Shown: one piece after another, positions 5,391 to 42,933 of the stretch
Position numbering within the stretch: the stretch's first letter is position 1
How the letters are laid out: every line of letters starts with the position of its first letter
DNA from: a virus
IMG/VR virus record: IMGVR_UViG_3300027859_000890
Coordinates: 1 to 64,000 of that record
Length of the DNA stretch: 64,000 bases
Reading direction: 5' to 3' (one strand)
The notes under the pieces: model-generated
Databases searched by the model: none
The model's input: only the letters and a program-made list of their open reading frames with translations
What the model was told of the DNA's origin: nothing
Made by a program: the position numbers and the translations under genes

Positions 5391-5989
5391 ACAAAATCCG
5401 ATACTAATTTATGAGCATTAGGTCCTGGATGTAATCCATCGTCTGCTCTATCATTTTTAACTAATAAATTTTCTACATTGTGTAATTTTGTGTAAAGATT
5501 TGTAGGTATCTTTTCAATTGTGTATTGATCATATGAATCATCACAATGTAAATTCACAACCTTTATATTTTGTTGCTGTAGGTGTAAGTTGGCTGTTTTG
5601 ATATATGTATATTCATCTATCATTGCATCTCTTTGACTACGTAACACATTCCATTTATACCAAGCTTCTGCTGCCTGTTTTGTTTGAGAATCTACTTCAT
5701 CATAATACATTTTGTGTTTGTGTATTAATAACTGATGTTTCTCAGTTTCAGTGTAAAGTAATGTTCTTGTCTTTGTATAGGTCCAAAGTATAACTACAAT
5801 GTCTTTAGGTTTGAAATTCTTTGATAAGATATAGTGCATTATTTGTTTATTGCTTGCACCACAAACTCCATAGTTGATAGCCCCAACCAATGCTGGCCAC
5901 GCACGTCTAGCAGGCGAGTCTGTTGTTATAGTACCATCTAAACCTAAACCAAATGTATTACTGCAACCAAATGCTATTAGCCTAGACAT
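5366..5989 (-). CDS. SGNH-hydrolase-like protein
   Basis: [18 protein letters not shown]. Confidence 0.65.
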
Positions 5990-7170
5990 TTTTTAACTGC
6001 CATTACGCACTCTTCTATCATAGCGTCAGTGTGAAGTGGAGTTGGAGCAAAACGGAGACGCTCCTCTCCCACAGCAACCGTTGGATAGTTGATTGGTTGA
6101 ACATAGATGCCGTGGTCATCTAATAAACAATCACTGATTGCTTTGCATACTTTGGCATCACGGATCATCACAGGAACGATATGAGTACAGGCTTTATCTA
6201 ATACTTCGACGCCAGCTTCAATCAATTTAGTTTTTAACTTCAATGCTTGAGCCTGATGCTGTTCGCGAAGTTCGTTGTGGTCTTTTAAATACTTTATACT
6301 GGCCAACGCTCCAGCACAAAGCACGGGCGACAGTGACGTAGTGAAAATAAATCCACTAGCCACGCTCCGGATAGCGTCTATGACGATGCTCTTGCCGGCG
6401 ATATAACCACCTGTAACGCCAAATGCCTTGCCGAGTGTTCCGTTAACAATATCAACTTTATCTTGAATACCTAGTTTTTCTAAGTACCCTGCTCCAGTGT
6501 CACCATACAATCCAACAGCGTGGACTTCATCAATATAAGTTATAGCACCGTAACGGTCAGCAAGATCGCAAATTGCTTCAATTGGGCTAACATCACCGTC
6601 CATACTATACACGGACTCGAATACAATGCAAGGGACTTGATTCCTAGTGGAAACTTCAACCAATTGTTGCTCTAATTGCTCCATATCATTGTGCTGCCAA
6701 ATTAACTTGTCAGCACCACTGTGTCGGATACCCTGTATGAGGCTTGCGTGATTCTTACTATCACTCAAAAACACAATGTTGGGAATGATTTTGCTTAAGG
6801 CAATTAGACTCCATTCATTTGCGACATAAGCACTCGAATACAAAAGAGCTTGTTCTTTGCAATGCAACTTACCAAGTTCCCATTCTAATGCTACGTGATA
6901 ATGCGATGTACCTCCGATGTTTCGTGTACCACCTGAACCAGCACCCGTTTGATCCAAAGCAGTATGCATCGCATCTATCACAACTTTTTGTTGCCCCATT
7001 CCAAGATAATCATTGCTACACCAATTTACAATATTTTTGATATTGTATTTGCCGTACCAAATTGCCTTAGGAAAGTCTCCTCGTTCTCGAACTATATCGT
7101 TGAAAACTCTATACTTGCCTTCTTGTTTTAGTTGGTTGATTACTTGTTCAAACGGGGTGTTATCTATCAT
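5977..7170 (-). CDS. hemA: 5-aminolevulinate synthase (PLP-dependent, Shemin pathway)
   Basis: [43 protein letters not shown] (PLP Lys), INYPTV. Confidence 0.95.
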
Positions 7171-27616: not shown

Positions 27617-27623
27617 ATACGCT

Positions 27624-28349: not shown

Positions 28350-28423
28350 AAACCACTAATGTTAGCGCCTTAATAGTTTTTTTCTGTAAATACAATTGTT
28401 ATCACAGCAATGAAAGATAAACA

Positions 28424-29153: not shown

Positions 29154-29174
29154 ACTAATATTTATTATTAAATT

Positions 29175-29275: not shown

Positions 29276-29279
29276 TCAT

Positions 29280-30122: not shown

Positions 30123-30203
30123 CTTTTTCTCCTTTTTTGACCTAAAAAAAATATGTCCAGAAATTGCTGGATTCAATCTTAAACCAAGTTATTTATCAAA
30201 AGG

Positions 30204-30234
30204 TTGACAAAGTTTTATTTCAATGTTATAAATA
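30204..30234 (+). promoter_or_regulatory. tmRNA promoter: overlapping sigma70 and late (TATAAATA) elements
   Basis: TTGACA-17-TATAAA(TA). Confidence 0.65.
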
Positions 30235-30239
30235 GACTT

Positions 30240-30552
30240 GTTAGCGTTGAAGCAACGTGGACACATACTGGACCTCGGGGCGGTACCGAGCAGCTCCACC
30301 ATAAACATATGAGAGTAGATGCACCTACTTTCCTGTGCATAGGACAAGAGCTCGAAAGGCTACAAGTCGTATGTTTATGATGGGGCTGAACAAGGATCGA
30401 CAGGTGTGAAAGTGAAGTGGAGTTAGCCGGATGACTGCGTTATTGGTCAAATTACACAATTGCAAACGACAATCGTGCGCCAGCAATGGCACTTGCAGCC
30501 TAATTAGGTATGCGGGGTATTGAGTTCCACCTAGCAACAGAACGGGCTCACC
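30240..30552 (+). ncRNA. ssrA: circularly permuted two-piece tmRNA (alphaproteobacterial type)
   Basis: acceptor piece ends ...CTCGGGGCGGTACCGAGCAGCTCCACCA (30301); intervening segment; coding piece starts GGGGCTGAA..GGATCGAC (30382); tag ANDNRAPAMALAA* at 30462-30503; outer ends approximate. Confidence 0.92.
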
Positions 30553-30611
30553 ATAAAATATTGGTTGAAACATTTTTTAGTTAAAGAACAACCATTTTAG
30601 AAAGGAATCAA

Positions 30612-31712
30612 ATGAAACTATTTAAATTAATAGCCGCATCACTAGCAGTGGTGGGGTGCTTCGGTTTGAGCGCATTTGCAGGAGAACCTAAAGATAAAGT
30701 ATCTGTGGGATTTGTCTATGTAGGACCAACAGGTGACCACGGATGGACATACAGACACGATATTGGTCGTAAGCAAGTTGAAGAAGCTTTCGGCGACAGA
30801 GTGGAAACAAGATTTGTAGAGTCAGTTGCTTATGGAGCAGACGCTACTAGAGTTTTTACACAAATGGCTATGCAAGGTGTAGACATTATTTTCGGAACTA
30901 GCTTTGGATATATGGATCCAATGCTGGAAGTCGCGGCAAAGTTTCCAAACACAAAATTTGAACACGCTACAGGTTACAAAACCAATGGCACAAATATGGC
31001 TAACTATGGATTGCGCCTCTACCAAGCAAGACACGTTCAAGGTGTTATTGCTGGATTGATGACAAAAACTAATAAAATTTGTTATGTGGCTGCATACCCA
31101 ATTCCAGAAGTTGTGCGTGAAATCAACACATATTACTTGGGTGCAAAAAGTGTAAATCCAGATGTAGATATTGACATCGTTTGGGTATACACTTGGTATG
31201 ATCCAGGCAAAGAAAAAGATGCCGCTGATGCATTGTTTAATAATGGTTGTGATGTGATTGCACAACACACAGACTCACCTGCTCCATTACAAGCCGCTGA
31301 ACAAAGAGGACTTGTAGGTTTTGGACAGGCAAGTGACCAAATCAAGAATGCACCTAAATCACAGTTGACAGCGACTATTGATAACTGGGGACCATATTAC
31401 ATTGCAAAAGTTGGTGCAGTGTTAGACGGAACTTGGACTACAACTTGTGACGGACCAGATGGTTGTTACTTTGGACATATGAACGATGGATCAGTTGAAA
31501 TGGCTCCGTTTACAAATATGCCAGACGATGTAGCCGCAAAAGCACAAGCAGTCAAGGATGCTATCCGTGACGGTGAATACTTTGCATTTACAGGTCCAAT
31601 CTACGACAACAAAGGTAATCTACAGATTGCTGACGGTGAAATTGCAACCAGAGACCATCTAGATAGTATGATGTACTATGTTGAAGGTATTGACGCAGAG
31701 TTGCCTAACTAA
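30612..31712 (+). CDS. BMP-family ABC transporter substrate-binding protein (purine nucleoside type)
   Basis: signal peptide; GFVYVGP..DHGWTYRH, TSFGYM, IPEVVR, WYDP, QHTDS. Confidence 0.9.
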   Translation: MKLFKLIAASLAVVGCFGLSAFAGEPKDKVSVGFVYVGPTGDHGWTYRHDIGRKQVEEAFGDRVETRFVESVAYGADATRVFTQMAMQGVDIIFGTSFGYMDPMLEVAAKFPNTKFEHATGYKTNGTNMANYGLRLYQARHVQGVIAGLMTKTNKICYVAAYPIPEVVREINTYYLGAKSVNPDVDIDIVWVYTWYDPGKEKDAADALFNNGCDVIAQHTDSPAPLQAAEQRGLVGFGQASDQIKNAPKSQLTATIDNWGPYYIAKVGAVLDGTWTTTCDGPDGCYFGHMNDGSVEMAPFTNMPDDVAAKAQAVKDAIRDGEYFAFTGPIYDNKGNLQIADGEIATRDHLDSMMYYVEGIDAELPN

Positions 31713-32575
31713 TGATACCGGTAATAGATTTACAAGCACAAGACGCTTTAGATCGCATTGACGAAGCCTACACCACTGTGGGCTTCGCTGTGTTTACTAA
31801 TGCATTACCTGGCGTAGATAAAGCTGATATGAGTGCTTGGCAACATCAAATGAGAACATTTTTTGAGTTGCCTATGGAAGTAAAACAAAAGTATCCTTAC
31901 GAAGGAGACACTAATTTAGGTTACAGTATGGTAGGTGATGAAAACGTTGACCCTACTGCACCAAAAGATATAAAGGAATCATTTAATTATAATGACACAA
32001 GGATGCCAGAACACTTGTGGCCAACAGAACTTAAAGGCTTTAAAGGCAGTGCATTAGCAAGCATAAATATTGCTGATAGATTAACATTACGCATTTTGGA
32101 GAAGTTTGATACTATCTTAGATACAGGCACTACATTAGTAGATGCACATAAAGTTCCATTCAACACAACAAGAGTGATACATTATCCAGCATATGATGGA
32201 CCTATGTTAGACAAACAAATGCGTATAGGAGAACATAGTGACTACGGTACTATTACTTTACTTTGGCAAATTAATGATGTCCCCGGACTTCAAGTTCAAG
32301 ACCTTGCTGGCGACTGGCATCCAGTACCCTATGCGGACGACGGCGTTGTTGTTAACATTGGTGACTTACTACAGCGTTGGACTAATGATTATTTTAAAAG
32401 TACTAAACATAGAGTGGTGAACACTCACATACATCAACAGAGATATTCAATGCCACACTTTGTTGATCCTACACCTGGAACAATAGTGAAAAACTTGCGT
32501 AAAGGCGAAGAGGATAAGTATGACCCAATTGAATCCAAAGAATATTTGATGTGGCGACTAGCACAGAGTTATTGA
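31712..32575 (+). CDS. isopenicillin N synthase-family 2OG-Fe(II) oxygenase
   Basis: IPVIDL, GEHSDYGTITLL, NIGDLL..WTND..STKHRV, RYS. Confidence 0.9.
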   Translation: MIPVIDLQAQDALDRIDEAYTTVGFAVFTNALPGVDKADMSAWQHQMRTFFELPMEVKQKYPYEGDTNLGYSMVGDENVDPTAPKDIKESFNYNDTRMPEHLWPTELKGFKGSALASINIADRLTLRILEKFDTILDTGTTLVDAHKVPFNTTRVIHYPAYDGPMLDKQMRIGEHSDYGTITLLWQINDVPGLQVQDLAGDWHPVPYADDGVVVNIGDLLQRWTNDYFKSTKHRVVNTHIHQQRYSMPHFVDPTPGTIVKNLRKGEEDKYDPIESKEYLMWRLAQSY

Positions 32576-32576
32576 T

Positions 32577-33002
32577 ATGACATATAGAACTAATGCAGAT
32601 TTATTTGAAGTAGGAGATTTTATAAGCCACGCAGGGTTACCATTGCCTTGGAAGATTGAGTGTGATGCTATACGACCTGAATGGTGGGATGGACTTGCCC
32701 GTATGGTTATGGATTACCAAACAAGACCATTTTACAAAGCAGTAGGCATTCCACGAGGCGGTATTCCGTTTGCACAAGCAATGAACAAATATGCAAGTGG
32801 TGATCCTAATGATCAAGTTATGATTTGTGACGATGTGTTTACTACAGGTACAAGTATGAAAGAATTCATTGAACAAGAATATCCAGATTGGACAATGGGT
32901 CAAGGATATCGTTGGGTTGTGTTTGCAAGGCAACCTAGCAATGTACATCCATATCACGTAAGAGCATTATTCACTATGCCAACAAAGCCAAGGGAAGAAT
33001 AA
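32577..33002 (+). CDS. type I phosphoribosyltransferase (OPRT-like)
   Basis: F.SHAG..L.WKIECD, GIPRGG, CDDVFTTGTS PRPP loop. Confidence 0.8.
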   Translation: MTYRTNADLFEVGDFISHAGLPLPWKIECDAIRPEWWDGLARMVMDYQTRPFYKAVGIPRGGIPFAQAMNKYASGDPNDQVMICDDVFTTGTSMKEFIEQEYPDWTMGQGYRWVVFARQPSNVHPYHVRALFTMPTKPREE

Positions 33003-33910
33003 TGCAAGTAGAAAGTTTGAACGGTGTAGCAACACAAATTAACAATGTTGATATTACAAATCTAAGTGATAGTGATGCAGATAAAATCAAAAACATTTTA
33101 CGCAAAGATCTTATTGTAGTTTTAAAACATCAAGAAAGATTGCCTTTTTGGTTTGTTAATTTTGTTGAACGTATAGGCACCGTTGCTAACTACAGGCAAA
33201 TGATTTACACAAAAGAAGGGGAGTTTTATATTGGTAAGACTCCTCCAAATACAAATAGCTGGGATAAAGATAAAGAATTATATCCTATACAAAGAACAAC
33301 TGCAAAAAAGAATAAAAAGGGTATATCAACTGGTATATTCAGTTCGGGTATATTAGATTGGCACGCCAACTTAAATGGTTTAGATCGTGCTGATGGTGTA
33401 GCACTACAAGGTTATGAAGGCTGCGAAAACACAAGCACAAGTTATTTGAATACAAATTTAGCCTACAATGACTTAGATGGTGACTTTAAAAAAGAATTAG
33501 AAGGCGTGTATTGTGAATATGAATACACACCAGAAGTATGGGCAAAGGGCTTGCCCGAAACACAATATAAAATGATGAAAAAGGACGGACAAGAAGGTCC
33601 TTATAAAATGTGGCTGCTCCAACAAAATATTGCAGGTGTAAAGGGCATTTATTTTTACACTAATAATAAATGTAAGATTATCACAGAAGATGAAAAACTG
33701 TTCCAACGTTTGTACGATCATATGTTCCAAGACAAATATGTATATCAACATTGGTATGAACCAGGAGATATTGTGTTAATGGATCAACTTTTAACTTTAC
33801 ACAAGCGTGATCAAAATGATCCGGAAATACTTGCACAAAGAGTGCTCCATAGAATTACATTTCGGATAAGTAATTATAATAATTTCATAGCAGACAAAAA
33901 TAAGGTATAG
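33002..33910 (+). CDS. TauD/TfdA-family dioxygenase
   Basis: LDWHAN, HWYEPGDIVLMDQ..TLHKR, RVLHR. Confidence 0.75.
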   Translation: MQVESLNGVATQINNVDITNLSDSDADKIKNILRKDLIVVLKHQERLPFWFVNFVERIGTVANYRQMIYTKEGEFYIGKTPPNTNSWDKDKELYPIQRTTAKKNKKGISTGIFSSGILDWHANLNGLDRADGVALQGYEGCENTSTSYLNTNLAYNDLDGDFKKELEGVYCEYEYTPEVWAKGLPETQYKMMKKDGQEGPYKMWLLQQNIAGVKGIYFYTNNKCKIITEDEKLFQRLYDHMFQDKYVYQHWYEPGDIVLMDQLLTLHKRDQNDPEILAQRVLHRITFRISNYNNFIADKNKV

Positions 33911-33937
33911 TGCTACACTTTAGCGCATCTACAAAAC

Positions 33938-33965
33938 TTGACATACCTACAAAAAAACATATAAT
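33938..33965 (+). promoter_or_regulatory. consensus sigma70 promoter of the cox operon
   Basis: TTGACA-16-TATAAT. Confidence 0.75.
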
Positions 33966-33988
33966 TACTTAATAAGATAAGGAAAACA

Positions 33989-34729
33989 ATGCAAGAACTT
34001 GAAATAGTCGGTGCTCCAAGAAGCGGAGCAATGGGCTTCCAGCCAGCAGCCACTAGCCTAGCGGAAGGCATCTTTGCACTTGATGCAATGCTACTGGTTA
34101 TAATTACAGCAATTAGTATATTTGTTACAGCGTTAATGATATACACATTTATACGCTACAACCGCAAGCGTAATCCAACACCAGCAACGTTTACACATAA
34201 TAGTCCAATAGAAGTAGCGTGGACAATTGTACCTGTGTTTATATTGTTGTTCATAGGTATGCTTACATTACCTGAACTATTTAGGCAACAGATTATACCA
34301 GAAGCAGATGTAAGAATAAAAGTTACAGGCTATAGTTGGTATTGGGGATATGAATACACAGACCACGATTTTGGCTTTGACAGTTATATGCTTGAAAAAG
34401 AACAACTTGCAGAATATGGTTATGACGATGAATACTATTTGTTAGCAACAGATACAGCAGTGGTTGTACCTGTAAACAAAACTGTGGTAATGAATATCAC
34501 AGGAGGCGATGTTATACATAGTTGGAAGATACCTGCGTTTGGAGTAATGCAAGATGCAGTGCCCGGCAGACTAGCACAGTTATGGTTCAAGCCTGAACGT
34601 GAAGGCATTTACTTTGGACAGTGTTCAGAACTATGTGGTAAGAATCACGCATATATGCCTATCACTGTTAAAGTTGTAAGTGAAGTAGAATATAATAAAT
34701 GGCTTGAATGGGCTGCCAATGAATATTAA
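33989..34729 (+). CDS. coxB: aa3-type cytochrome c oxidase subunit II (no signal peptide)
   Basis: HNSPIEVAWT, WYWGYEY, DVIHSW, CuA motif CSELCGKNHAYM. Confidence 0.95.
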   Translation: MQELEIVGAPRSGAMGFQPAATSLAEGIFALDAMLLVIITAISIFVTALMIYTFIRYNRKRNPTPATFTHNSPIEVAWTIVPVFILLFIGMLTLPELFRQQIIPEADVRIKVTGYSWYWGYEYTDHDFGFDSYMLEKEQLAEYGYDDEYYLLATDTAVVVPVNKTVVMNITGGDVIHSWKIPAFGVMQDAVPGRLAQLWFKPEREGIYFGQCSELCGKNHAYMPITVKVVSEVEYNKWLEWAANEY

Positions 34730-35237
34730 ATTAGCATTGAAACTTGTTTTTATTGGAGTAGCAATGGGAGCATTGGCTTTTGCCAGTGTGCCATTTTATG
34801 ATTGGTTTTGTAGAACAACAGGATTTGGCGGAACACCACTTACAGCAGAAAGTGTAGAAGTAGAAGCATTGGATAAAACTATTACAGTTAGATTTGATGC
34901 AAACGTAGATTCAGACTTTCCTTGGTTGTTTTCACCAATGCAAAAGAAAATGGAAGTGCGTATAGGCGAATCAGAAATGGCTTTTTACCAAGTGCATAAT
35001 CCAACAGATGAAACAATGGCAGGCACTGCTACATTTAATGTAGTGCCTATGAGTGCAGGAGCATACTTTGTTAAGACAGAATGTTTTTGCTTTCAGCACC
35101 AAGAACTAGCACCTGGGCAGACAGAAGAAATGCCTGTTAGTTTTTATATAGATCCGGAGATATTAGAAGACAGAGAAACAGATTATCTTCAAACAATTAC
35201 ACTCAGTTACACATTTTATGAAAAGGATACACAATGA
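34719..35237 (+). CDS. ctaG: cytochrome c oxidase Cu chaperone Cox11/CtaG
   Basis: [33 protein letters not shown]. Confidence 0.93.
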
Positions 35238-36892
35238 CAGACGCAACACACGATGAATATCAGTCAGGATGGTTCACTAGATGGTTTATGAGTACAAACC
35301 ATAAAGATATTGGAATATTGTATTTGATTACTGCTGCCGTTATAGGTTTTATCAGTGTGGCATTGACAGTTTATATGCGTATGGAACTTATGCAACCTGG
35401 TGTACAATTTATGTGCGATGAAGGCGCTAGACTTATTATAGACAGCAGTGAATGTACACCAAACGGACACTTGTGGAATGTTGTAATTACATCACACGGT
35501 ATCCTTATGATGTTTTTTGTGTTGATACCTGCACTGTTTGGAGGCTTTGGTAACTATTTTATGCCGTTGCAAATTGGTGCACCTGATATGGCTTTTCCTA
35601 GAATGAATAATTTAAGTTATTGGTTGTATGTTGCAGGTGTTACACTTGCTATTTGTAGTTTGTTTGTGCCAGGAGGCAGTGGACAAAACGGTGCTGGTGT
35701 AGGTTGGGTAATGTATCCACCGCTAAGTAGCACTGAAGGTGGTATGAGTATGGACCTAGCTATCTTTGCGTTGCACGTATCGGGCGTCAGCAGTATACTT
35801 GGTGCAATCAATATTATTACTACATTTTTGAATATGCGAGCACCTGGAATGACACTACACAAAGTTCCTTTGTTTGCTTGGAGTATATTTGTAACAGGTT
35901 GGTTAATACTGTTGAGTCTACCTGTGCTGGCAGGTGCAATTACAATGTTGCTTACAGATAGAAACTTTGGTACAACATTCTTTGATCCTGCAGGTGGCGG
36001 TGATCCTATATTGTATCAACACATATTTTGGTTCTTTGGACACCCAGAAGTTTACATTATTATTTTACCAGGCTTTGGATTGATATCACATATTGTTGCA
36101 ACGTTTTCACGTAAGCCTATTTTTGGTTACTTGCCAATGGTATATGCAATGGTTGCAATTGGTGCATTAGGTTTTGTTGTATGGGCTCACCATATGTATA
36201 CAGTTGGTTTGTCAGTTACACAACAATCATATTTTATGTTGGCAACAATGGTAATTGCTATACCAACAGGTATAAAAATCTTCAGCTGGGTAGCAACACT
36301 TTGGGGTGGTAGTATAGAATTTAAAACACCAATGCTATGGGCTTTAGGATTTATATTTTTGTTTACAGTAGGAGGCGTAACAGGTATTGTGCTTTCACAA
36401 TCACCAGTTGATAGAGCATATCACGACACTTATTATGTTGTGGCACACTTTCATTACGTTATGTCGCTAGGTGCTGCCTTCTCAGTGTTTGCTGGAATAT
36501 ATTATTATTGGGGTAAAATGACTGGTAGGATGTACAGTGAATGGATGGGCAAGTTACATTTTTGGATGATGTTTATTGGTTCAAACGTAACATTCTTTCC
36601 ACAGCATTTTTTAGGACGCCAAGGTATGCCAAGACGTTATATTGATTATCCAGAAGCATTTGCATTGTGGAACTATGTAAGCAGTTTGGGTGCGTTCTTA
36701 GCATTTGCAAGTTTCATATTGTTCTTTTGGATAATGGCACATAGTTTCTTTTTTGGCAGACGTATTACAGAAACTAATTATTGGAACGAGTATGCAGATA
36801 CATTAGAATGGACACTACCTTGCCCACCACCAGAACACACTTTTGAAATATTGCCAAAAAGAGAGGATTGGGACAAAAGTGCTACACATTAA
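35234..36892 (+). CDS. coxA: aa3-type (A1) cytochrome c oxidase subunit I
   Basis: [60 protein letters not shown]. Confidence 0.98.
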
Positions 36893-36906
36893 CGCAGGCA
36901 ATAAGG

Positions 36907-36935
36907 TTGACTTTTACTTAAAAATTTGCTATATA
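36907..36935 (+). promoter_or_regulatory. sigma70-type promoter
   Basis: TTGACT-17-TATATA with TG extension. Confidence 0.55.
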
Positions 36936-36967
36936 TAATATAAGAATAACACACACACGGAGTTAGT

Positions 36968-37396
36968 ATGAATCAAAAACCAAACCCAATTGGTTGGGCA
37001 AACACCATCTCTTCAATACAAAACGAATTTAAATCTATGTGGTCAATAATAATGACCATCGAAAACTCGCCACTGAAGAAACTTGATCCTAGAGTAGCTC
37101 ATATGTTGTTTCTAATTTTGGCTTTTATGTGGAGCGGAATCTTTGCAGTAATGATTGGCAGTGTAACTGCTTTTGGTATTAGTGCAATAGCACACATTAT
37201 CTTAGTTTCAGGAACAGCAATTACTATTATGGTATTTAATGAAGCAGACAAAAGACCAGACAGTCTAAATAAAACTGTTGAATCTTTTAAACTAGTAAGT
37301 GGCTATCATAGCTTTCCGCGAGCCAGGCAGAATTTGTGGGTAAACGGACAAAAAGTACAATTAGATGATAAAGATCCAGGAGGCGAACACGAATGA
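36968..37396 (+). CDS. membrane protein
   Basis: two TM segments with His residues; GGAG RBS. Confidence 0.65.
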   Translation: MNQKPNPIGWANTISSIQNEFKSMWSIIMTIENSPLKKLDPRVAHMLFLILAFMWSGIFAVMIGSVTAFGISAIAHIILVSGTAITIMVFNEADKRPDSLNKTVESFKLVSGYHSFPRARQNLWVNGQKVQLDDKDPGGEHE

Positions 37397-37584
37397 CTTA
37401 TAATTTTTTTAACAAGAACAATGGTGACGCTTTTTCTATGCAGTTTGATAATGAGCATAAGAAAGATGTGTACGTAAGTAGTAACCCCAATTTGGTTTGT
37501 TTAGGCGAGCAAGAATTTACCTTGCCTACTCGTCACGTAAGAATGCAAAACAAAGAAGAGGAGTTTGCCGGATGGGGAAGCTAA
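37393..37584 (+). CDS. hypothetical protein
   Basis: ATGA overlap. Confidence 0.55.
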   Translation: MTYNFFNKNNGDAFSMQFDNEHKKDVYVSSNPNLVCLGEQEFTLPTRHVRMQNKEEEFAGWGS

Positions 37585-37642
37585 TTAGAAAAATTAAAGT
37601 TGAATTTCCTTGGACAAAAAATTTACCTGAGGTTACTGGTAG

Positions 37643-37858
37643 GTGACTGATCCAAGAGTAGAAGCCCAAGCAGAAGCTGAACGTACATTTGATCAGTTTA
37701 TGGTTTGGACAAAAAGGGTTGTAATATATAGTATAATATTTTTAATGATTGTGCTATTTGGTTGCAACAATGGTGTAGAAGTAGGCCCTAATGCTACAGG
37801 GTCAAAATATAATGGAGAACAATATGCTCCGTCTAATATTAATGTTAAGGATTATTAA
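37643..37858 (+). CDS. possible aa3 oxidase subunit IV (CtaH-like)
   Basis: ERTFDQFMVWTKRVVIYSIIFL single-TM pattern resembles the bacterial COX IV E.TF..F motif; near the cox genes. Confidence 0.45.
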   Translation: MTDPRVEAQAEAERTFDQFMVWTKRVVIYSIIFLMIVLFGCNNGVEVGPNATGSKYNGEQYAPSNINVKDY

Positions 37859-38271
37859 TGAGTAGACTAAAAAATATTGTAAATCGTATACCAGAATTTT
37901 GTATGAGTCACTGGTTAATAAGAATACCTCTTGCTATTGTATTCTTACAACAAGGTTTTAGTAAACTTCCTGTTACTATAGAAGGAGCAGAGTCTTTTGA
38001 CTTGCCTTATATTGTTTGGTGGTTTGCGGCATATGGTGAAATTGGTGCAGGTATAGGTTTACTAGTTGGTGGTTTAGTTTTTTATAAAGCAATAGCTGAA
38101 CTGCAAGATATTATCACAAGATTTTCAGGTATTACTATTTGTAGTATTATGACAGGAGTAATATGGATAGGAGAGCCAGAAAGTCTTTGGGACGTTATTT
38201 GGTACGATAACTTACACGTATTTTTATGGGTAGGAGGTTTGTTCTTTGCTTTGCGAGGCAATAGAACTTGA
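37858..38271 (+). CDS. DoxX-family membrane protein
   Basis: LIRIPLAIVFLQQG..K, GEIGAGIGLL. Confidence 0.75.
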   Translation: MSRLKNIVNRIPEFCMSHWLIRIPLAIVFLQQGFSKLPVTIEGAESFDLPYIVWWFAAYGEIGAGIGLLVGGLVFYKAIAELQDIITRFSGITICSIMTGVIWIGEPESLWDVIWYDNLHVFLWVGGLFFALRGNRT

Positions 38272-38477
38272 GCGGACAAAGACGTATGCTCAAATGGTGG
38301 GCAAGAACAGTTGGTATGCCTATTGGTATCACCGACGATGATAAACCAGAGTTCTTGCCTATATCACAAACAGATGTCAAACGTGCTTTATGGGCAAGGA
38401 CATTTTGGATTGTGTTACATATATTAACTTGTTGCTTCATTATAGCAGGCAACGGAAAAACACTAGGAGTTTGGTAG
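38268..38477 (+). CDS. small membrane protein
   Basis: TTGA overlap; C-terminal TM. Confidence 0.6.
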   Translation: MSGQRRMLKWWARTVGMPIGITDDDKPEFLPISQTDVKRALWARTFWIVLHILTCCFIIAGNGKTLGVW

Positions 38478-38605
38478 TGATTAAAATAATTGGATATTTC
38501 AAAGACAGTGTTGTTTCACGTGTGTTTGACAATGAATGGGACGCAATGGATTATAGAGATACATTAGATGCACATTATGCAAAAGTAGAATGGGTGTATC
38601 TATAA
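38477..38605 (+). CDS. hypothetical protein (42 aa)
   Basis: GTG overlapping the upstream TAG; AGGAG RBS. Confidence 0.5.
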   Translation: MIKIIGYFKDSVVSRVFDNEWDAMDYRDTLDAHYAKVEWVYL

Positions 38606-38730
38606 TGTGGGACGCAATAATATTTTTTGGTGTAGTTTATGGTTATACATTTGGTATGATTGCATTTGCATATATAAGCCACAATATACATACAAGAGAT
38701 CCTTTTGGTAATAGTGGAATGAGATTATGA
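38605..38730 (+). CDS. small membrane peptide (41 aa)
   Basis: TAATG and ATGA couplings on both sides. Confidence 0.45.
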   Translation: MWDAIIFFGVVYGYTFGMIAFAYISHNIHTRDPFGNSGMRL

Positions 38731-38951
38731 AGTTTTTAATTATAGTTATGTTAACAATAGGTGATCCTTTTATTATAAAAACACTGAAGTTTGATAGTAA
38801 AGAAGAATGTGTAAAATATGTAATGAATCCAGCGAATGCAGATGTACTTGCAATCGAAACAATAGCAGTGGCAGGTTTCAATGATCCTATGACAGCTATA
38901 CTGTGTTTACCAGAAAATCAAAATGTAGTGGAGGTGCCTAATGAAGCCTAA
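38727..38951 (+). CDS. hypothetical protein (similar to 3775-4032)
   Basis: FDSKEEC motif. Confidence 0.6.
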   Translation: MKFLIIVMLTIGDPFIIKTLKFDSKEECVKYVMNPANADVLAIETIAVAGFNDPMTAILCLPENQNVVEVPNEA

Positions 38952-39162
38952 TAATAAATTTGAATTATCAGTTGAGGATATTGATATTATAGAGACTGCT
39001 CTTAGAGCAAAAGCCGGACGTAGAGGTATGAAAATACTTACAGGTGAAGGCGATGTGAATAAGTATAAGAAAGAAGCAGAAGAAATTACCAACCTTCTAG
39101 GACGTATACACGATCAAAAAGTATGGTTTCGTTCTAGAGATAAAGTCTATGTAGGAGGATAA
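38941..39162 (+). CDS. hypothetical protein
   Basis: GGAGG RBS. Confidence 0.65.
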   Translation: MKPNNKFELSVEDIDIIETALRAKAGRRGMKILTGEGDVNKYKKEAEEITNLLGRIHDQKVWFRSRDKVYVGG

Positions 39163-39163
39163 T

Positions 39164-39601
39164 ATGATTAGACTATTGACTACTCTAGCAATGCTAGTAG
39201 CAATGGCAATTCCTGCCGTTGCAGAAGATGTTACACTTGAAATGTGGAACAAAGACCCAGAAGATAAGAAACGCAAAATGGTTTTCTCAGAAGAGATTGT
39301 AACTATTGAACCAGGACAATCTATTACTTGGTTAGCATCAGATAAAGGACACAATGTTCAAATGATTGCAGGACCAAAAGGCGTAGACTTACCAGGTAAA
39401 TCAAAAATATCAAAAGATGTTACTTTGTCATTTGATGACCCAGGTGTGTACGTTTATGTTTGTACACCACACGCAACAATGGGTATGATTGGCGTAGTTG
39501 TTGTAGGTGAAGCAACTGAAGAAGCTATTAAAGCAGTTGAAAAAGCAAAAGTACGTGGCAAGTCAAAGAAGAAGCTACAGAAACTATTAAAAGAACTTTG
39601 A
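39164..39601 (+). CDS. pseudoazurin (type 1 blue copper protein)
   Basis: signal peptide; KGHNV, GVYVYVCTPHATMGM. Confidence 0.88.
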   Translation: MIRLLTTLAMLVAMAIPAVAEDVTLEMWNKDPEDKKRKMVFSEEIVTIEPGQSITWLASDKGHNVQMIAGPKGVDLPGKSKISKDVTLSFDDPGVYVYVCTPHATMGMIGVVVVGEATEEAIKAVEKAKVRGKSKKKLQKLLKEL

Positions 39602-39756
39602 TACTAAAATTGTTGTTTTTAAGCAACACCTATTGCAAATCTGTTACAAAATAGCGCACCTAGTTTCACAAAGTGCATAAATAATACTGCGAAAGGGCAA
39701 GCGTTGAAAAACTTGCCCTTTGCCATATCCACATAATAAAAAGAAGGAAATATATT

Positions 39757-40548
39757 ATGCGCAAGGTATTTACCACAATGGCAGCAATGATGGTCGCGGG
39801 TGCGGCATTTGCTGAAGCACCAGCAGTATCAGGTCCGATGCTGTCAGGTGAAGTGGAACTAAAGTTCACACAAGATGCAACCACTGACAAATGGGGTGGT
39901 GCAATGGGTCTAGACTTAGGTATAGATGCAAACGGAGTAGCAAGTGTTGATCTTGATCTATCTGCACAAGACGGCGGATCAGTTACATTAGACAACTGGA
40001 CAGTTGGCACAAATGTAGCAGGTGTAGGCGTTGCAGTTGGTGACGACAATGGTGTGTTTGTTGGAGCAGAAGGCGAGCAAACAATCGCAGCCCCAGCAAT
40101 GACTGAGTCAGTAAAAGTAACTGTAGGCGATGCAGCCGTAGCAGTTGGTTTGACAGACTGGACAACTGATGCATTTGATATCAGCAACATTCAAGGTTCG
40201 TATGCAATTGGTGACGTAGCTGGTTTATCAGTTACGGCATCAGGTGACTATAACTTGGACAGTGAAAACATTGTACTAGGTGGTGCAGTAGGCGGACTAG
40301 AAGCAGGACCAGCAGGCATTAGCAGTACTGTAACATATGATGTTGATGCAGAACTATGGGGATTCGAAGGCGTTGCAACAATGGGTGCTATTACAGCATA
40401 TGCAAACGGTGACGATACAGATCTACTACAAAACGTAGGTGGTGACTATGAATACAATTTAGGTGGAGCAACATTGAACACCGGAATGGTATACAACTTA
40501 GATTCAGAAGAATTTACACCATCAGCAAGTGTTAGTTTTAACTTCTAA
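39757..40548 (+). CDS. porin (Rhodobacterales type)
   Basis: signal peptide AAFA; acidic amphipathic beta-strands; C-terminal VSFNF. Confidence 0.75.
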   Translation: MRKVFTTMAAMMVAGAAFAEAPAVSGPMLSGEVELKFTQDATTDKWGGAMGLDLGIDANGVASVDLDLSAQDGGSVTLDNWTVGTNVAGVGVAVGDDNGVFVGAEGEQTIAAPAMTESVKVTVGDAAVAVGLTDWTTDAFDISNIQGSYAIGDVAGLSVTASGDYNLDSENIVLGGAVGGLEAGPAGISSTVTYDVDAELWGFEGVATMGAITAYANGDDTDLLQNVGGDYEYNLGGATLNTGMVYNLDSEEFTPSASVSFNF

Positions 40549-40567
40549 TCACTGCAAACACAAGATT

Positions 40568-40592
40568 AAAAAGAGCCTCCGGGCTCTTTTTT
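40568..40592 (+). terminator. rho-independent terminator
   Basis: AAAAAGAGCC/GGCTCTTTTT. Confidence 0.8.
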
Positions 40593-40657
40593 CATTTATA
40601 AATACTTGCACAAAATAATATGTTGTGTTATTATAAAGTATTAGCTAAAAGGTTACT

Positions 40658-42346
40658 ATGAGAAAGAACAGAATTATTCTACTCAATGATATCTTTGATA
40701 ATGATATTAGTGGGCAGACGCAGGACTCTTTGCAAGATTTAGATGACGATACGTTCAATAATTTACATATTGAGCAACAAGAAAAGTCAAATAAAAAGTA
40801 TGAAGTCAAAATGATTTCTACTAATAACAAGTATACCTTTTGGAGTAGGTATATGGGTCCTTATGCAGTGGCCAGTGCTGTACATCAAAACTGTCCTGAT
40901 TGGGAAGTTGTTGTTATTGATTGGTTTACAAAAATTGATCATTTTCACGACTACATAGCAAACTTTATAAATGAGGACACTTACTATATTGGACTAAGCA
41001 CAACATTTTTATTGAATACATTTAATCCAAGAGCACAGGATTTTAATTTATGGTTTACTAGACAACGTCAAGTTGATGACTGGTTCAATAAGATTAAAGA
41101 AATAAATCCTGATATTGAATTTATATTAGGTGGTGCTATTACTGATTTATTTTACAAAATACATTTTAAAACAAGACCAGAAGCAAAGTTTCCTGTTGCG
41201 TTTCAAAATCATATTAACTATGTTTTCAATGGTTACGCAGAAGATACAATGGTAGAGTTTCTTAATGGAGAACTAGAACCTCAAAAAGTACACGAAAAGA
41301 ATGGTATCTTTTTTATCAACGAAACAAAAATGGCATCCACTGGTGCAAAAGTATTACAAAGCAATTATCAACACTCAATGGCTATTAAGAATGGCGAGTG
41401 GTTGCCGCTTGAAGTTAGCAAAGGTTGTAGGTTTGGTTGTAAGTTTTGTTTCTATGATATTAGAGGCACACTAATCAAAGACGCAGATTGTTTACGTGAA
41501 GAACTTATGTACAACTATGAAAACTTTGGCGTAACAGGATATATGCTAACAGATGATACAGTTAACGATAGTCCTGCAAAAATAGATATGTTACACAAAG
41601 TCATTAAGAGTTTGCCATTTAAAATGGAATGGATTAGTTATTGTAGGCCAGATATGTTTAGTAAGTATCCTGAAATGTGGCGTAAAATGATTGATATGGG
41701 TTGTAAAGGTGTTTTCTTAGGTGTTGAAACATTAGATCATACAGCAGGTAAACTTGCAGGCAAAGGACTTGATCCAGAACGTATGAAAGAAATATTAACT
41801 TGGATGCGTGAAGTTGCACAAGACGATGTTTTTATTCTTGCTAGTATGATTATTGGACTGCCTGGAGAAACAAAAGAAAGTTTATACAAAACAGCAGAGT
41901 GGTTCAAAGAGCAAACAGTATTAGACAAGATACAATATGAACTATTCTTTGTAAGTGATGGCAACGATAGTAAGTCTCCTGCATTTACAGGTAAGCCAGA
42001 CAATCCATACGGAATACATTTAGAATATTATCCAAACTATTATTGGAAACACAACAGTATGGATTTACACGATGCACAATTTATGGCGTTGGAATGGGAA
42101 AAGATGCTGATTGATCATCCTAAGACAGCATTTGAAAGACACTTTAGTTACAACACAAATTTTTGGGCTTATCCAAGACTGCGTAGTTTAGGATATGATC
42201 ATTTAGAGTCTGTTGGTATATTGACAGCAAAAGTTGTACCACAAGAAGTTTACGAAAAGAATAGACGTTGGATTGATAATTATCACACAGAATTAAAATT
42301 AATTAACCACGTCAAATCATTACAACAAGAAGAAATGTTAGCGTGA
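40658..42346 (+). CDS. B12-binding-like radical SAM protein
   Basis: SKGCRFGCKFC, DDT, GVET, IIGLPGET. Confidence 0.85.
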   Translation: MRKNRIILLNDIFDNDISGQTQDSLQDLDDDTFNNLHIEQQEKSNKKYEVKMISTNNKYTFWSRYMGPYAVASAVHQNCPDWEVVVIDWFTKIDHFHDYIANFINEDTYYIGLSTTFLLNTFNPRAQDFNLWFTRQRQVDDWFNKIKEINPDIEFILGGAITDLFYKIHFKTRPEAKFPVAFQNHINYVFNGYAEDTMVEFLNGELEPQKVHEKNGIFFINETKMASTGAKVLQSNYQHSMAIKNGEWLPLEVSKGCRFGCKFCFYDIRGTLIKDADCLREELMYNYENFGVTGYMLTDDTVNDSPAKIDMLHKVIKSLPFKMEWISYCRPDMFSKYPEMWRKMIDMGCKGVFLGVETLDHTAGKLAGKGLDPERMKEILTWMREVAQDDVFILASMIIGLPGETKESLYKTAEWFKEQTVLDKIQYELFFVSDGNDSKSPAFTGKPDNPYGIHLEYYPNYYWKHNSMDLHDAQFMALEWEKMLIDHPKTAFERHFSYNTNFWAYPRLRSLGYDHLESVGILTAKVVPQEVYEKNRRWIDNYHTELKLINHVKSLQQEEMLA

Positions 42347-42903: not shown

Positions 42904-42933
42904 TATGGGCATATTATTTAGAGAGGGCGAACA

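What the first reader, a model, noticed from the sequence alone, without database searches (positions are those of the whole stretch)
33938..36892. Phage-encoded aa3 cytochrome c oxidase operon (coxB-ctaG-coxA) under a consensus early promoter
Seen: intact subunit II (CuA ligands), Cox11 (CFCF) and subunit I (heme a/a3 and CuB His ligands, HPEVY, D-channel [11 protein letters not shown]-channel PTGIK). The three overlap, use the same AT-rich codon style as neighbouring phage genes, and follow TTGACA-16-TATAAT. Known: cyanophages carry psbA/psbD and PTOX to sustain host energy supply. I do not know a characterised phage carrying a heme-copper terminal oxidase core. Inference: a respiratory counterpart of viral photosynthesis genes that keeps the proton-motive force up during infection of a heterotrophic alphaproteobacterium.
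Basis: partly seen in the sequence, partly recalled or inferred. Interest (0 to 1): 0.88.

Follow-up and report, generated by a model that had tools for sequence, protein, structure and literature searches.

The report
Phage-borne cytochrome c oxidase core genes
A large marine phage carries intact, selection-maintained genes for the two catalytic subunits of the oxygen-reducing respiratory enzyme and its copper chaperone, taken from a roseobacter-type host, which suggests that some phages rebuild host respiration much as cyanophages rebuild photosynthesis.

Summary
coxB (33989-34729), ctaG (34704-35237) and coxA (35234-36892) are intact and overlapping. They lie behind the only 12-of-12 TTGACA-16-TATAAT site in the 12.5 kb scanned. 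All metal and heme ligands and proton-channel residues checked are present.

The 134-kb record is a phage fragment (CheckV 37 %), not a chimera. Two independent viral contigs repeat the same junctions at 94-97 % DNA identity. Against one of them the three genes show 35 synonymous and 0 non-synonymous codon differences.

All three proteins are closest to Rhodobacterales (CoxA 76-84 %, CoxB 62-74 %, CtaG 55-59 %), yet GC3 is 0.24-0.29, as in the phage's own genes.

The cassette is phage-specific:
- The order coxB-ctaG-coxA was found in none of 105 cellular loci.
- CoxB lacks the cellular leader and C-terminal tail.
- Subunit III and ctaA, ctaB and sco genes are absent from the 134 kb.

Four related phage fragments carry coxA of gammaproteobacterial type, so capture was repeated.

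Most likely the phage makes a new catalytic core that uses host heme a and host assembly factors. Expression is only hinted at by short metatranscriptome contigs; function is untested. I found only bulk listings in print. The scan had noted this same stretch before, in another window.

The parts
33938..33965 (+). sigma-70-type promoter-like site, TTGACA-16-TATAAT, 23 nt upstream of the coxB start; an AAGGA ribosome-binding site lies at about 33979
   Evidence: 12-of-12 match, the only one in 30000-42500. Five perfect sites in the window, all on +, against 0.21 expected; seven in the 134 kb, all on +. Sequence read. Activity and timing were not tested.
33989..34729 (+). coxB (ctaC), cytochrome c oxidase subunit II, 246 aa. 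It is a 'mature-form' gene without the N-terminal leader or the C-terminal tail.
   Evidence: Pfam COX2 and COX2_TM; TIGR02866 above its cut-off; CuA ligands H177, C212, E214, C216, H220, M223. It starts and ends within a few residues of the chains deposited for mature R. sphaeroides and P. denitrificans subunit II. It lacks the 21-28 N-terminal and about 12 C-terminal residues of cellular Rhodobacteraceae CoxB.
34704..35237 (+). ctaG (Cox11), the membrane-anchored copper chaperone for the CuB site, 177 aa (172 aa from the ATG at 34719)
   Evidence: PF04442, 190.9 bits over profile positions 1-148 of 148; NF003465 219.6 against 162; C36, C127 and C129 (CFCF) present; 55-58 % identical to CtaG of five Rhodobacterales genomes.
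35234..36892 (+). coxA (ctaD), cytochrome c oxidase subunit I, 552 aa, A1-type
   Evidence: PF00115 529.4 bits; TIGR02891 694.9 against 670.75; 1029 bits, end to end, to P. denitrificans subunit I chain 1ar1_A; 19 of 19 functional residues kept; inside the Rhodobacterales clade; 28 synonymous and 0 non-synonymous codon differences against L006.
39164..39601 (+). possibly associated: a pseudoazurin-like cupredoxin with a signal peptide, a candidate periplasmic electron carrier
   Evidence: PF00127 55 bits. TIGR02375 pseudoazurin 100 bits, just under its cut-off of 109.85. No cupredoxin in the five other viral records. The link to the oxidase is inference only.
5977..7170 (-). possibly associated: 5-aminolevulinate synthase (valaS), the first step of heme synthesis
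   Evidence: TIGR01821 562.8 bits against a cut-off of 338.55. The first ORF fetched from L007 is 68 % identical to it and lies about 2.9 kb upstream of that contig's coxB-coxA-ctaG cluster.
30189..30552 (+). host clue, not part of the cassette: a permuted alphaproteobacterial-type tmRNA
   Evidence: Rfam RF01849 alpha_tmRNA 125.4 bits (gathering score 50) and RF04321 116.1 bits. ARAGORN calls a permuted tmRNA with the tag ANDNRAPAMALAA.

Best explanation
What it is: a genuine auxiliary metabolic cassette of a large marine phage, a T4-related myovirus by its replication and baseplate genes. CheckV's completeness estimate implies a full genome of about 360 kb. The phage captured coxB, ctaG and coxA from a Rhodobacterales (roseobacter-type) bacterium and has kept them long enough for them to take on phage base composition.

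How the phage reshaped it:
- Genes from two separate host loci were fused into one overlapping three-gene unit behind a phage-typical sigma-70 promoter.
- ctaB was dropped.
- CoxB was trimmed to the mature form.

Proposed mechanism (inferred):
1. During infection the host RNA polymerase transcribes the unit.
2. Newly made subunit I receives host-made heme a and a3, and receives CuB from the phage's own Cox11.
3. The leaderless subunit II receives CuA from host Sco or PCuAC-type factors.
4. The I+II core, alone or joined to host subunit III, takes electrons from host cytochrome c, or possibly from the phage pseudoazurin. It reduces O2 and pumps protons.
5. Respiration and ATP supply therefore continue after host gene expression has been shut down.

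This would make subunit I the respiratory counterpart of cyanophage psbA (D1).

Shown: identity, intactness, viral location, source lineage, purifying selection, phage-specific remodelling, and recurrence in related phages.

Inferred: expression timing, assembly with host factors, activity, and benefit to the phage.
For: Viral context:
- PHROG and Pfam hits on both sides include RNR nrdA and nrdB, clamp loader, tail fibres, baseplate hub and wedge, virion proteins, PhoH, MazG, ThyX, endolysins and Hsp20.
- nrdAB DNA is 72 % identical to Synechococcus myovirus S-PM2.
- The record is classed as a virus, 37 % complete.

Not a chimera:
- Contig L006 is colinear with window 24507-38195 at 95-97 % DNA identity.
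- Contig L192 is colinear with 25300-34881 at 94-96.5 %.

Selection: codon differences against L006 are 3 synonymous and 0 non-synonymous in coxB, 4 and 0 in ctaG, and 28 and 0 in coxA. The neighbouring TauD gene shows 51 and 9, and bmp 20 and 5.

Source lineage:
- The best named CoxA hits, at 80-83 %, are Rhodobacteraceae.
- CoxA lies inside the Rhodobacterales clade, SH-aLRT 100.
- CoxB is 62-67 % and CtaG 55-58 % identical to those of Rhodobacterales genomes.

Adaptation to the phage: GC3 is 0.24-0.29, against 0.58-0.97 in 50 of 51 Rhodobacterales coxA genes.

Remodelling:
- 0 of 51 Rhodobacterales loci have coxB or ctaG near coxA.
- 28 of 29 other alphaproteobacterial loci have coxB-coxA, with ctaG further downstream where found (25 of the 28).
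- Among the 25 best metagenome loci, coxB lies about 1.2 kb upstream of ctaG wherever it was found, and none has coxA.
- CoxB lacks the leader and the tail.

Catalytic residues are intact.

Recurrence:
- Four related phage fragments share several phage genes with this genome.
- They carry intact coxA of gammaproteobacterial type; two of them also carry ctaG, and one of those two coxB as well.

Heme supply: 5-ALA synthase is encoded in the same genome.

Expression hint: contigs of 156-230 nt from two RNA libraries of one sample lie on coxB, ctaG and coxA with 1-3 mismatches each.
Against: - No direct evidence of transcription timing, protein, assembly or activity.
- The RNA-library contigs are short, come from one sample, and could derive from DNA carried into the library.
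- Subunit III, heme O and heme A synthases and Sco are absent from the 134 kb held. The enzyme would therefore depend on host factors. Only about 37 % of the genome is in hand, so their true absence is unproven.
- No capsid (Gp23) or large terminase match lies in the fragment. The viral call rests on other phage genes.
- The relative with the longest fragment (194 kb) has coxA without coxB, so a complete phage-made core is not general.
- aa3-type oxidases have modest O2 affinity, so a benefit in low-oxygen water is doubtful (established knowledge, not tested here).
Confidence: 0.6

Rival explanations
1. Oxygen or redox management rather than energy supply. The extra oxidase lowers intracellular O2 and drains over-reduced carriers. 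This would protect the phage's many oxygen-labile iron-sulfur and radical SAM enzymes and limit reactive oxygen species, a form of 'respiratory protection'.
For: - The genome encodes at least nine radical SAM, SPASM or B12-binding radical SAM proteins, plus NifU and IscA-type Fe-S assembly proteins and a peroxiredoxin.
- Related cox-bearing contigs carry alternative oxidase, Fe/Mn superoxide dismutase, a redoxin and a di-heme cytochrome c peroxidase next to or near coxA.
Against: - D-channel and K-channel residues are all kept. These include the Asn whose replacement is known to uncouple pumping, so nothing suggests an uncoupled enzyme (the uncoupling mutant is recalled).
- aa3-type enzymes are not high-affinity O2 scavengers (established knowledge).
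- This reading does not exclude the energy role.
Confidence: 0.15
2. Retained but not working as an oxidase. The products act as decoys or modulators, for example by titrating host assembly factors, heme a or copper, or by altering host membrane physiology. Alternatively the cassette is a neutral passenger on its way to decay.
For: - Subunit III and the heme a synthesis genes are missing.
- One relative has coxA alone in 194 kb.
- No activity data exist.
Against: - A passenger would not show 35 synonymous and 0 non-synonymous differences.
- It would not keep 19 of 19 catalytic residues, nor keep them in five viral CoxAs wherever sequence is present.
- The ten phage-specific changes at otherwise conserved CoxA sites are all conservative.
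- Co-carriage of the CuB chaperone in this phage and in two gamma-type relatives points to metallated, active subunit I.
Confidence: 0.1
3. Assembly artefact or cellular DNA. The cox region is host chromosome joined to phage DNA by the assembler, or the whole contig is cellular.
For: - CoxA is 80-84 % identical to cellular proteins.
- Low-GC Rhodobacterales exist: the loci L037, L104, L108, L114 and L117 have GC 0.36-0.39.
- GenBank 'phage' records with oxidase genes can be mislabelled host contigs.
Against: - Three separately assembled viral contigs share both junctions.
- The gene order and the truncated CoxB were not seen in any cellular locus examined.
- The low-GC genome G004, which holds L037, is less similar than high-GC relatives: CoxA 76 % and CoxB 62 %.
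- Composition is flat across 30-42 kb.
- Phage genes flank the region on both sides.
Confidence: 0.03

Closest known systems
aa3-type cytochrome c oxidase of Paracoccus denitrificans and Rhodobacter sphaeroides (PDB 1AR1, 1QLE, 1M56)
   Same: - Subunit I aligns end to end (1029 bits) with all checked ligands and channel residues kept.
- Subunit II aligns over the whole mature chain with the CuA site.
- From recall: 1AR1 is the two-subunit (I+II) enzyme, which is catalytically competent.
   Different: - It is encoded by a phage at GC3 of about 0.27.
- The gene order is coxB-ctaG-coxA, not ctaD alone plus ctaC-ctaB-ctaG-ctaE.
- CoxB has no leader or tail.
- No subunit III or IV and no ctaA or ctaB were found.
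Cyanophage photosynthetic and electron-transport auxiliary genes (psbA, psbD, PTOX, petE)
   Same: - These are host-derived membrane energy-conversion subunits in T4-like marine phages, at phage composition, and are thought to keep energy flowing after host shut-off (general knowledge; PMC5082946, abstract seen).
- This phage also carries a cupredoxin.
- A related contig carries an alternative oxidase.
   Different: - It targets aerobic respiration in heterotrophs rather than photosynthesis.
- It includes a metallochaperone.
- No expression or activity data exist yet.
Viral members of the heme-copper superfamily and other respiratory genes reported from metagenomes: norB (Gazitua et al. 2020, PMC8115048), cbb3 subunit I reads in viral fractions (Williamson et al. 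2012, PMC3474794), and a bulk listing of coxA and coxB among viral AMGs (bioRxiv 10.64898/2026.04.10.717577)
   Same: These are heme-copper superfamily or oxidase genes attributed to viruses of marine bacteria (passages read).
   Different: - Those reports concern NO reductase, read-level cbb3 annotations, or uncurated lists without gene context.
- Here there is an A-type oxidase core plus Cox11, with resolved context, evidence of selection, a source lineage and phage-specific remodelling.
Phages carrying 5-aminolevulinate synthase with hemO and a bilin reductase (Shemin-pathway phages, PMC11480375)
   Same: - This genome carries valaS, heme oxygenase and a bilin reductase.
- That paper proposes that valaS helps to keep heme enzymes such as cytochrome c oxidase working (passage read).
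   Different: The paper does not report phage-borne oxidase genes. The phrase 'cytochrome c oxidase' occurs once, in the discussion. A search of its 11 held supplementary files found no such annotation.

Membership tests
A-type (A1) heme-copper cytochrome c oxidase, subunit I | Full-length COX1 fold scoring above the curated family cut-offs | tested here: met
   PF00115 529.4 bits over profile positions 1-436 of 436; TIGR02891 694.9 against 670.75; 1029 bits to 1ar1_A over residues 10-552.
A-type (A1) heme-copper cytochrome c oxidase, subunit I | Six His ligands (heme a twice, heme a3, CuB three times) and the cross-linked Tyr | tested here: met
   H88, H407, H405, H270, H319, H320 and Y274 are present. 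The residue numbering of the reference enzyme is recalled; it was mapped through the alignment.
A-type (A1) heme-copper cytochrome c oxidase, subunit I | D-channel (Asp entry, Asn residues, Glu of GHPEV) and K-channel (Thr, Lys) | tested here: met
   D118, N107, N125, N193, E272, T345 and K348 are present.
A-type (A1) heme-copper cytochrome c oxidase, subunit I | Hemes are of the a type ('aa3'), and the enzyme has oxidase activity with proton pumping | not testable with these tools
   This needs spectra and activity assays. The genome holds no ctaA or ctaB, so heme a would have to come from the host.
Cytochrome c oxidase subunit II (cytochrome c-oxidising, CuA type) | Two N-terminal membrane helices plus a cupredoxin domain with the CuA ligands H...CxExCxxxHxxM | tested here: met
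   COX2_TM and COX2; H177 and C212-M223; TIGR02866 above its cut-off, while the quinol-oxidase models score far below theirs.
Cox11/CtaG copper chaperone | Membrane anchor, soluble domain, and three Cys (one next to the anchor, plus CFCF) | tested here: met
   PF04442 over profile positions 1-148 of 148; C36, C127 and C129; NF003465 above its cut-off.
Complete bacterial aa3 oxidase gene set (ctaC, ctaD, ctaE with ctaA, ctaB, ctaG, sco) | Subunit III and the heme O and heme A synthases encoded alongside | tested here: not met
   No COX3, UbiA, COX15 or SCO1 match in the 134 kb. No COX3 in five further viral records. All these records are fragments.
Phage auxiliary metabolic gene | A host-derived metabolic gene inside a viral genome, flanked by viral genes, and reproducible across assemblies | tested here: met
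   Flanking phage genes; colinear independent contigs; Rhodobacterales origin.
Phage auxiliary metabolic gene | Maintained by selection in the virus | tested here: met
   35 synonymous and 0 non-synonymous codon differences between two phage variants. GC3 matches the phage.
Phage auxiliary metabolic gene | Expressed during infection, with an effect on host metabolism | tested here: inconclusive
   Short near-identical contigs from two RNA libraries of one sample lie on the three genes. Contigs cannot show strand, level or timing, and DNA carry-over is possible.

The most novel reading that the evidence does not exclude
A lineage of marine jumbo phages of roughly 200-360 kb (sizes computed by me from CheckV completeness) practises 'viral respiration'.
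- Its members have repeatedly captured the catalytic subunit I of the aerobic terminal oxidase from whichever host group they infect: Rhodobacterales here, Cellvibrionales-like Gammaproteobacteria in relatives.
- Often they have also captured the CuB chaperone and subunit II.
- They have streamlined these genes: a leaderless, mature-form CoxB, no subunit III, and a fused operon.
- They pair them with their own heme-precursor synthase.

Subunit I would then be the respiratory equivalent of psbA (D1): the component that limits energy supply once host expression stops.
Probability: 0.4. Interest if true: 0.85.

Novelty: new variant of a known kind. Interest (0 to 1): 0.74.

Why it matters
Phage auxiliary genes for photosynthesis changed how marine carbon and energy budgets are read. 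An equivalent for aerobic respiration in phages of abundant heterotrophs (roseobacters, and marine Gammaproteobacteria of Cellvibrionales type) would mean that part of ocean oxygen consumption runs through virus-encoded enzyme cores.

The cassette also gives a compact, naturally minimised oxidase module: mature-form subunit II, subunit I and Cox11. It could be used to study which assembly steps limit oxidase biogenesis.

The idea is directly testable by complementation in Paracoccus or Rhodobacter oxidase mutants.

Tried and rejected
- Chimera or host contamination: rejected on the colinear independent contigs, the composition and the unique architecture.
- GenBank phage collection: tblastn with CoxA matched 12 records, all at 42 % identity or less. 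I opened two of the 12. H3 is a bacterial contig labelled as phage, with cyoABCDE beside ribosomal genes and dnaB. Flavobacterium phage 6H has only a 151-aa C-terminal CoxA-like ORF. The other ten were not opened.
- L011, a 'giant virus MAG' hit, is a mitochondrial fragment carrying nad and cob genes, a LAGLIDADG ORF and ribosomal proteins. It was set aside.
- A profile scan of IMG/VR with five viral CoxAs found only the five contigs already known.
- Scans with the short CoxB homologues P0243 and P0242 found no further viral contigs. Their context, and that of P0003 and P0319, stays unknown.
- The one metagenome scan, with CtaG, gave nothing above 59 % identity. The 25 best of its 80 loci, which were the only ones I examined, all look cellular.
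- ORF 36968-37396, downstream of coxA, is not an oxidase subunit. It has no Pfam, NCBIfam or PHROG match. By language-model features it resembles viral hypothetical membrane proteins. It has its own promoter-like TTGACT...TATAAT site.
- Pseudoazurin as a conserved partner: no cupredoxin in five other viral records, and only 35 % identity to two of six Rhodobacterales genomes. This remains a weak idea.
- RNA-library contigs: bins 32272-33873 and 40816-42951 had no cover in any of the four runs laid. The very high depths at 35476-37077 come from short 90-95 % matches of other organisms' coxA. Neither is used as evidence.
- No structure prediction or complex prediction was run. At this similarity to solved structures (1029 bits end to end for subunit I) a pass would only reflect likeness to them.
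- Literature searches for a described phage aa3 oxidase gave only the three partial precedents named above.
- The global-ocean AMG catalogue (PMC11360552) does not mention cytochromes or respiration in its main text. Its large tables are not held. Table S26 of the sandy-beach preprint is closed. Either could hold listings that I could not see.
Full report
**1. Observation**

- coxB 33989-34729, 246 aa.
- ctaG 34704-35237, 177 aa from a TTG start, or 172 aa from the ATG at 34719.
- coxA 35234-36892, 552 aa.

Family scores support the names.
- Pfam gives COX2 and COX2_TM, CtaG_Cox11, and COX1 over the whole model.
- All three pass NCBI's equivalog cut-offs for cytochrome c oxidase subunit II, the assembly protein and subunit I. 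The quinol-oxidase models fall far short of theirs.

CoxA aligns end to end with P. denitrificans subunit I (1ar1_A, 1029 bits). Through that alignment, 19 of 19 residues that I checked are kept (the reference numbering is recalled). They are:
- the heme a and a3 His ligands, the three CuB His and the cross-link Tyr;
- the Glu of GHPEV, the D-channel Asp and three Asn;
- the K-channel Thr and Lys, the Mg-site His and Asp, and the Arg pair.

CoxB has the CuA ligands, and CtaG has all three Cys.

The genes overlap: by 26 or 11 nt for coxB and ctaG, and by 4 nt for ctaG and coxA.

TTGACA-16-TATAAT at 33938-33965 is the only perfect site in 12.5 kb. The perfect consensus occurs five times in the window, all on the + strand, against 0.21 expected. 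It occurs seven times in the 134 kb, including upstream of nrdA. An AAGGA ribosome-binding site precedes coxB.

**2. Is it viral, and is the join real?**

The window is the first 64 kb of a 134,166-bp IMG/VR virus record that CheckV rates 37 % complete. That implies about 360 kb (my arithmetic).

Phage genes flank the cassette on both sides.
- In the window, out of 68 ORFs scanned: HNH endonuclease, exonuclease, RNR large and small subunits, a PAAR protein, endolysins and Hsp20.
- Beyond it, out of 64 ORFs: DNA methylase, ClpP, tail fibres, baseplate wedge connector, baseplate hub with lysozyme, clamp loader, a gp31-like co-chaperonin, MazG, ThyX, PhoH, virion proteins and a spanin.
- nrdAB DNA is about 72 % identical to cyanomyovirus S-PM2.

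No Gp23 capsid or Terminase_6N match lies in the fragment. The Gp23 search rang in no control genome, so it says little.

Composition is flat across the region. GC3 of the cox genes (0.24-0.29) equals that of nrdA and nrdB.

Two separately assembled viral contigs repeat the arrangement.
- L006 matches window 24507-38195 at 95-97 %.
- L192 matches window 25300-34881 at 94-96.5 %.
- Both lack only the ORF at 27624-28349.

A chimera or a cellular contig is therefore very unlikely.

**3. Selection**

Codon differences between the window and L006:

| Gene | Synonymous | Non-synonymous |
|---|---|---|
| coxB | 3 | 0 |
| ctaG | 4 | 0 |
| coxA | 28 | 0 |
| TauD-like neighbour | 51 | 9 |
| bmp | 20 | 5 |

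The 35-to-0 total shows strong purifying selection on the phage copies.

Against 117 cellular-type homologues, the phage CoxA differs at ten sites that are conserved in at least 97 % of them. All ten changes are conservative. Eight control sequences gave 0-7 such sites.

**4. Where the genes came from**

- Apart from the window's own protein, the best 120 CoxA hits are 80-84 % identical. Those that carry a name are almost all Rhodobacteraceae, Paracoccaceae or Roseobacteraceae.
- In a tree of 84 rows (two rows dropped: L085 and L009, because of a stop in the matched stretch), the phage CoxA sits inside the Rhodobacterales clade, SH-aLRT 100. Its end branch is longer than the median (0.34 against 0.14), and its place within the clade is not firm.
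- In a second tree of 61 rows that I selected, it pairs with the metagenome protein P0003 (84 % identical, support 99). P0003's context could not be fetched.
- CoxB is 62-67 % and CtaG 55-58 % identical to those of five Rhodobacterales genomes. Identities to other Alphaproteobacteria are lower: 40-52 % and 39-52 %.
- Rhodobacterales coxA genes have GC3 of 0.58-0.97 in 50 of 51 loci. The one low-GC locus (L037, GC3 0.35) is less similar, at 76 %.
- A permuted alphaproteobacterial-type tmRNA lies 3.4 kb upstream. That fits an alphaproteobacterial host.

**5. What the phage changed**

*Gene order.*
- In 0 of 51 Rhodobacterales loci is coxB or ctaG within the fetched flanks of coxA.
- In 28 of 29 other alphaproteobacterial loci the order is coxB-coxA. 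ctaG, where found (25 of the 28), lies 1.1-1.5 kb further downstream.
- In the Rhodobacterales genome G001, coxB and ctaG lie about 1.2 kb apart on one strand.
- The 25 best metagenome loci show the same spacing wherever coxB was found, and none has coxA.
- The phage order coxB-ctaG-coxA, with overlaps and no ctaB, was seen in none of these 105 loci.

*Trimmed subunit II.*
- Of 119 listed CoxB homologues, 115 are 274-292 aa, one is 260 aa, and three are 247-248 aa.
- The alignment shows that the phage protein and those three lack both the 21-28-residue leader and the roughly 12-residue C-terminal tail.
- These four form a clade, SH-aLRT 99.8, in a tree of 44 rows. The rows were the phage, the four short proteins and every third of the others.
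- The phage ORF begins and ends within a few residues of the chains deposited for mature subunit II (1m56_B, 1qle_B).
- That the cellular protein is processed at both ends is recalled from the Paracoccus literature.

*Missing parts.* No COX3, UbiA (ctaB), COX15 (ctaA) or SCO1 match occurs in the 134 kb.

**6. It is not alone**

Scans of the viral contig collection found:
- two more contigs of this same phage;
- four contigs of other phages with CoxA 49-60 % identical;
- one 'giant virus' record that is really mitochondrial.

The four phage contigs are fragments rated 8-56 % complete. They share several phage genes with this genome, including lipase, cell-wall hydrolase, peroxiredoxin, DUF6267, ALA synthase and DUF454.

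| Contig | Oxidase genes | Nearby genes |
|---|---|---|
| L007 | coxB-coxA-ctaG | alternative oxidase, ClpP, an SdhB-like Fe-S protein |
| L010 | coxA-ctaG | redoxin, a di-heme cytochrome c peroxidase |
| L008 (194 kb) | DUF2244-coxA; no coxB anywhere in the record | superoxide dismutase, heme oxygenase |
| L009 | coxA at the contig end | – |

Their CoxAs are of gammaproteobacterial type.
- L007's best named hits are Halieaceae, Dasania, the BD1-7 clade and Oceanicoccus, at 82-83 %.
- In the 61-row tree, L007 and L010 (with four metagenome proteins) form a clade inside that gamma group. L008 and L009 form a pair beside it.

All viral CoxAs keep the key residues wherever sequence is present. 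No COX3 is found in any of the six records. So related phages captured oxidase genes more than once, from different host groups, and subunit I is the constant element.

**7. Mechanism**

*Shown.* An intact, selected, phage-adapted catalytic core (I+II) with the CuB chaperone lies behind a host-type promoter. A 5-aminolevulinate synthase (TIGR01821, above its cut-off), a heme oxygenase and a bilin reductase are encoded in the same genome.

*Inferred.*
- Host RNA polymerase transcribes the unit.
- Heme a comes from host CtaA and CtaB, possibly boosted by the phage ALA synthase.
- CuB comes from the phage Cox11, and CuA from host factors.
- The core works alone or with host subunit III. The two-subunit Paracoccus enzyme is active (recalled).
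- The result is continued O2 reduction and proton pumping while host expression is off.

The pseudoazurin-like protein at 39164-39601 could feed electrons, but nothing ties it to the oxidase.

A rival or additional role is oxygen and redox protection of the phage's many radical SAM and Fe-S proteins.

*Expression.* Two metatranscriptomic runs of one sample hold short contigs (156-230 nt) with 1-3 mismatches on coxB (34364-34593), ctaG (35005-35170) and coxA (36366-36531). They also hold contigs on bmp, ORF 36968-37396, the pseudoazurin gene and the ORF at 39757-40548. This is a hint only: contigs show neither strand nor level, and DNA can be present in RNA libraries.

**8. Comparison with what is known, and novelty**

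The proteins are ordinary members of the A1-type oxidase, CoxB and Cox11 families. The setting is what is unusual.

In print I found:
- read-level 'viral cbb3 oxidase' annotations (PMC3474794, passages);
- a viral norB (PMC8115048, figure legend);
- one 2026 preprint that lists coxA and coxB among viral auxiliary genes without detail.

The Shemin-pathway phage paper argues that viral ALA synthase supports enzymes such as cytochrome c oxidase. It reports no phage oxidase genes, either in its text or in its 11 held supplementary files. Eight literature searches found no description of a phage aa3 core. Supplementary tables of two catalogues could not be seen (bioRxiv supplements are closed).

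I therefore rate it a new variant of a known kind, phage auxiliary energy-metabolism genes. It has features that I did not find described: the fused order, the mature-form CoxB, the co-carried chaperone, and repeated host-matched capture.

This scan had noted the same stretch before, in another window (e1-6161939).

**9. Verdict**

- The viral origin, the source lineage and selection are well supported.
- The physiological role is a reasoned inference that awaits expression and complementation tests.

Noticed in passing
window 30189-30552 (+): The phage encodes a permuted, alphaproteobacterial-type tmRNA: Rfam RF01849 at 125 bits, with the tag peptide ANDNRAPAMALAA. It is a useful clue to the host and unusual cargo in its own right.
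   Followed up: partly
window 29175-29275 (-) and 29280-30176 (-): An over-long tRNA-like gene lies next to a 298-aa class II aminoacyl-tRNA-synthetase-like ORF. ARAGORN calls the tRNA-like gene Asp with anticodon ATC, about 100 nt long; Rfam scores it as tRNA at 48 bits. The ORF matches PF00152 and PHROG 29758, a family of unknown function. Neither is explained.
   Followed up: no
window 5977-7170 (-), 7593-8072 (-), 50001-50534 (+), 51186-51905 (+): A tetrapyrrole set: 5-aminolevulinate synthase (TIGR01821, 563 bits), a DUF454 protein, heme oxygenase and a ferredoxin-dependent bilin reductase. The same combination is described for Shemin-pathway phages in PMC11480375.
   Followed up: partly
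window 53013-55107 (+): Curli-type secretion genes in a phage: CsgF, CsgG and a protein with curlin repeats. They are followed by a FecR-domain protein.
   Followed up: no
window 57920-59965 (+): A 681-aa protein with a CHASE2 sensor domain and an adenylate/guanylate cyclase domain, matching PHROG 35576 over its full length.
   Followed up: no
genome 69316-89286 (L002 7316-12777 and L003 1234-9286): A run of radical SAM, SPASM and B12-binding radical SAM genes, about eight in number. Another lies at window 40658-42346. NifU (window 28839-29225) and an IscA-type protein (L003 18485-18844) are also encoded. The product of this set is unknown.
   Followed up: no
window 27624-28349 (+): A fatty-acid-desaturase-like ORF is present in the window but absent from both other contigs of the same phage, so it is an indel between variants.
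   Followed up: partly
window 18338-19300 (+) and 47693-48841 (+): Further metabolic cargo: a glyceraldehyde-3-phosphate dehydrogenase and an enzyme of the IMP dehydrogenase / GMP reductase family.
   Followed up: no
L007 642-1211, 13233-13952; L010 7358-8794; L008 15147-16273: Related cox-bearing phage contigs carry other redox genes near coxA: alternative oxidase, an SdhB-like 2Fe-2S/4Fe-4S protein, a di-heme cytochrome c peroxidase, Fe/Mn superoxide dismutase and heme oxygenase.
   Followed up: partly
L008 9536-9991: In the 194-kb relative, a DUF2244 membrane protein directly precedes coxA, and no coxB is found in the record. DUF2244 may be an oxidase-linked factor.
   Followed up: no
L011 (IMG/VR 'GVMAG' record) and GenBank record under H3: Two database labels look wrong. 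The giant-virus MAG contig is a mitochondrial fragment with nad and cob genes, a LAGLIDADG ORF and ribosomal proteins. 'Acinetobacter phage MD-2021a' contig 4 is bacterial chromosome, with cyoABCDE, rpsF, rpsR, rplI and dnaB.
   Followed up: partly
L031 1703-4044: In one Rhodobacterales MAG the CoxA match spans 2.3 kb instead of 1.66 kb. This suggests an insertion, such as an intron, an intein or an assembly fault, inside coxA.
   Followed up: no
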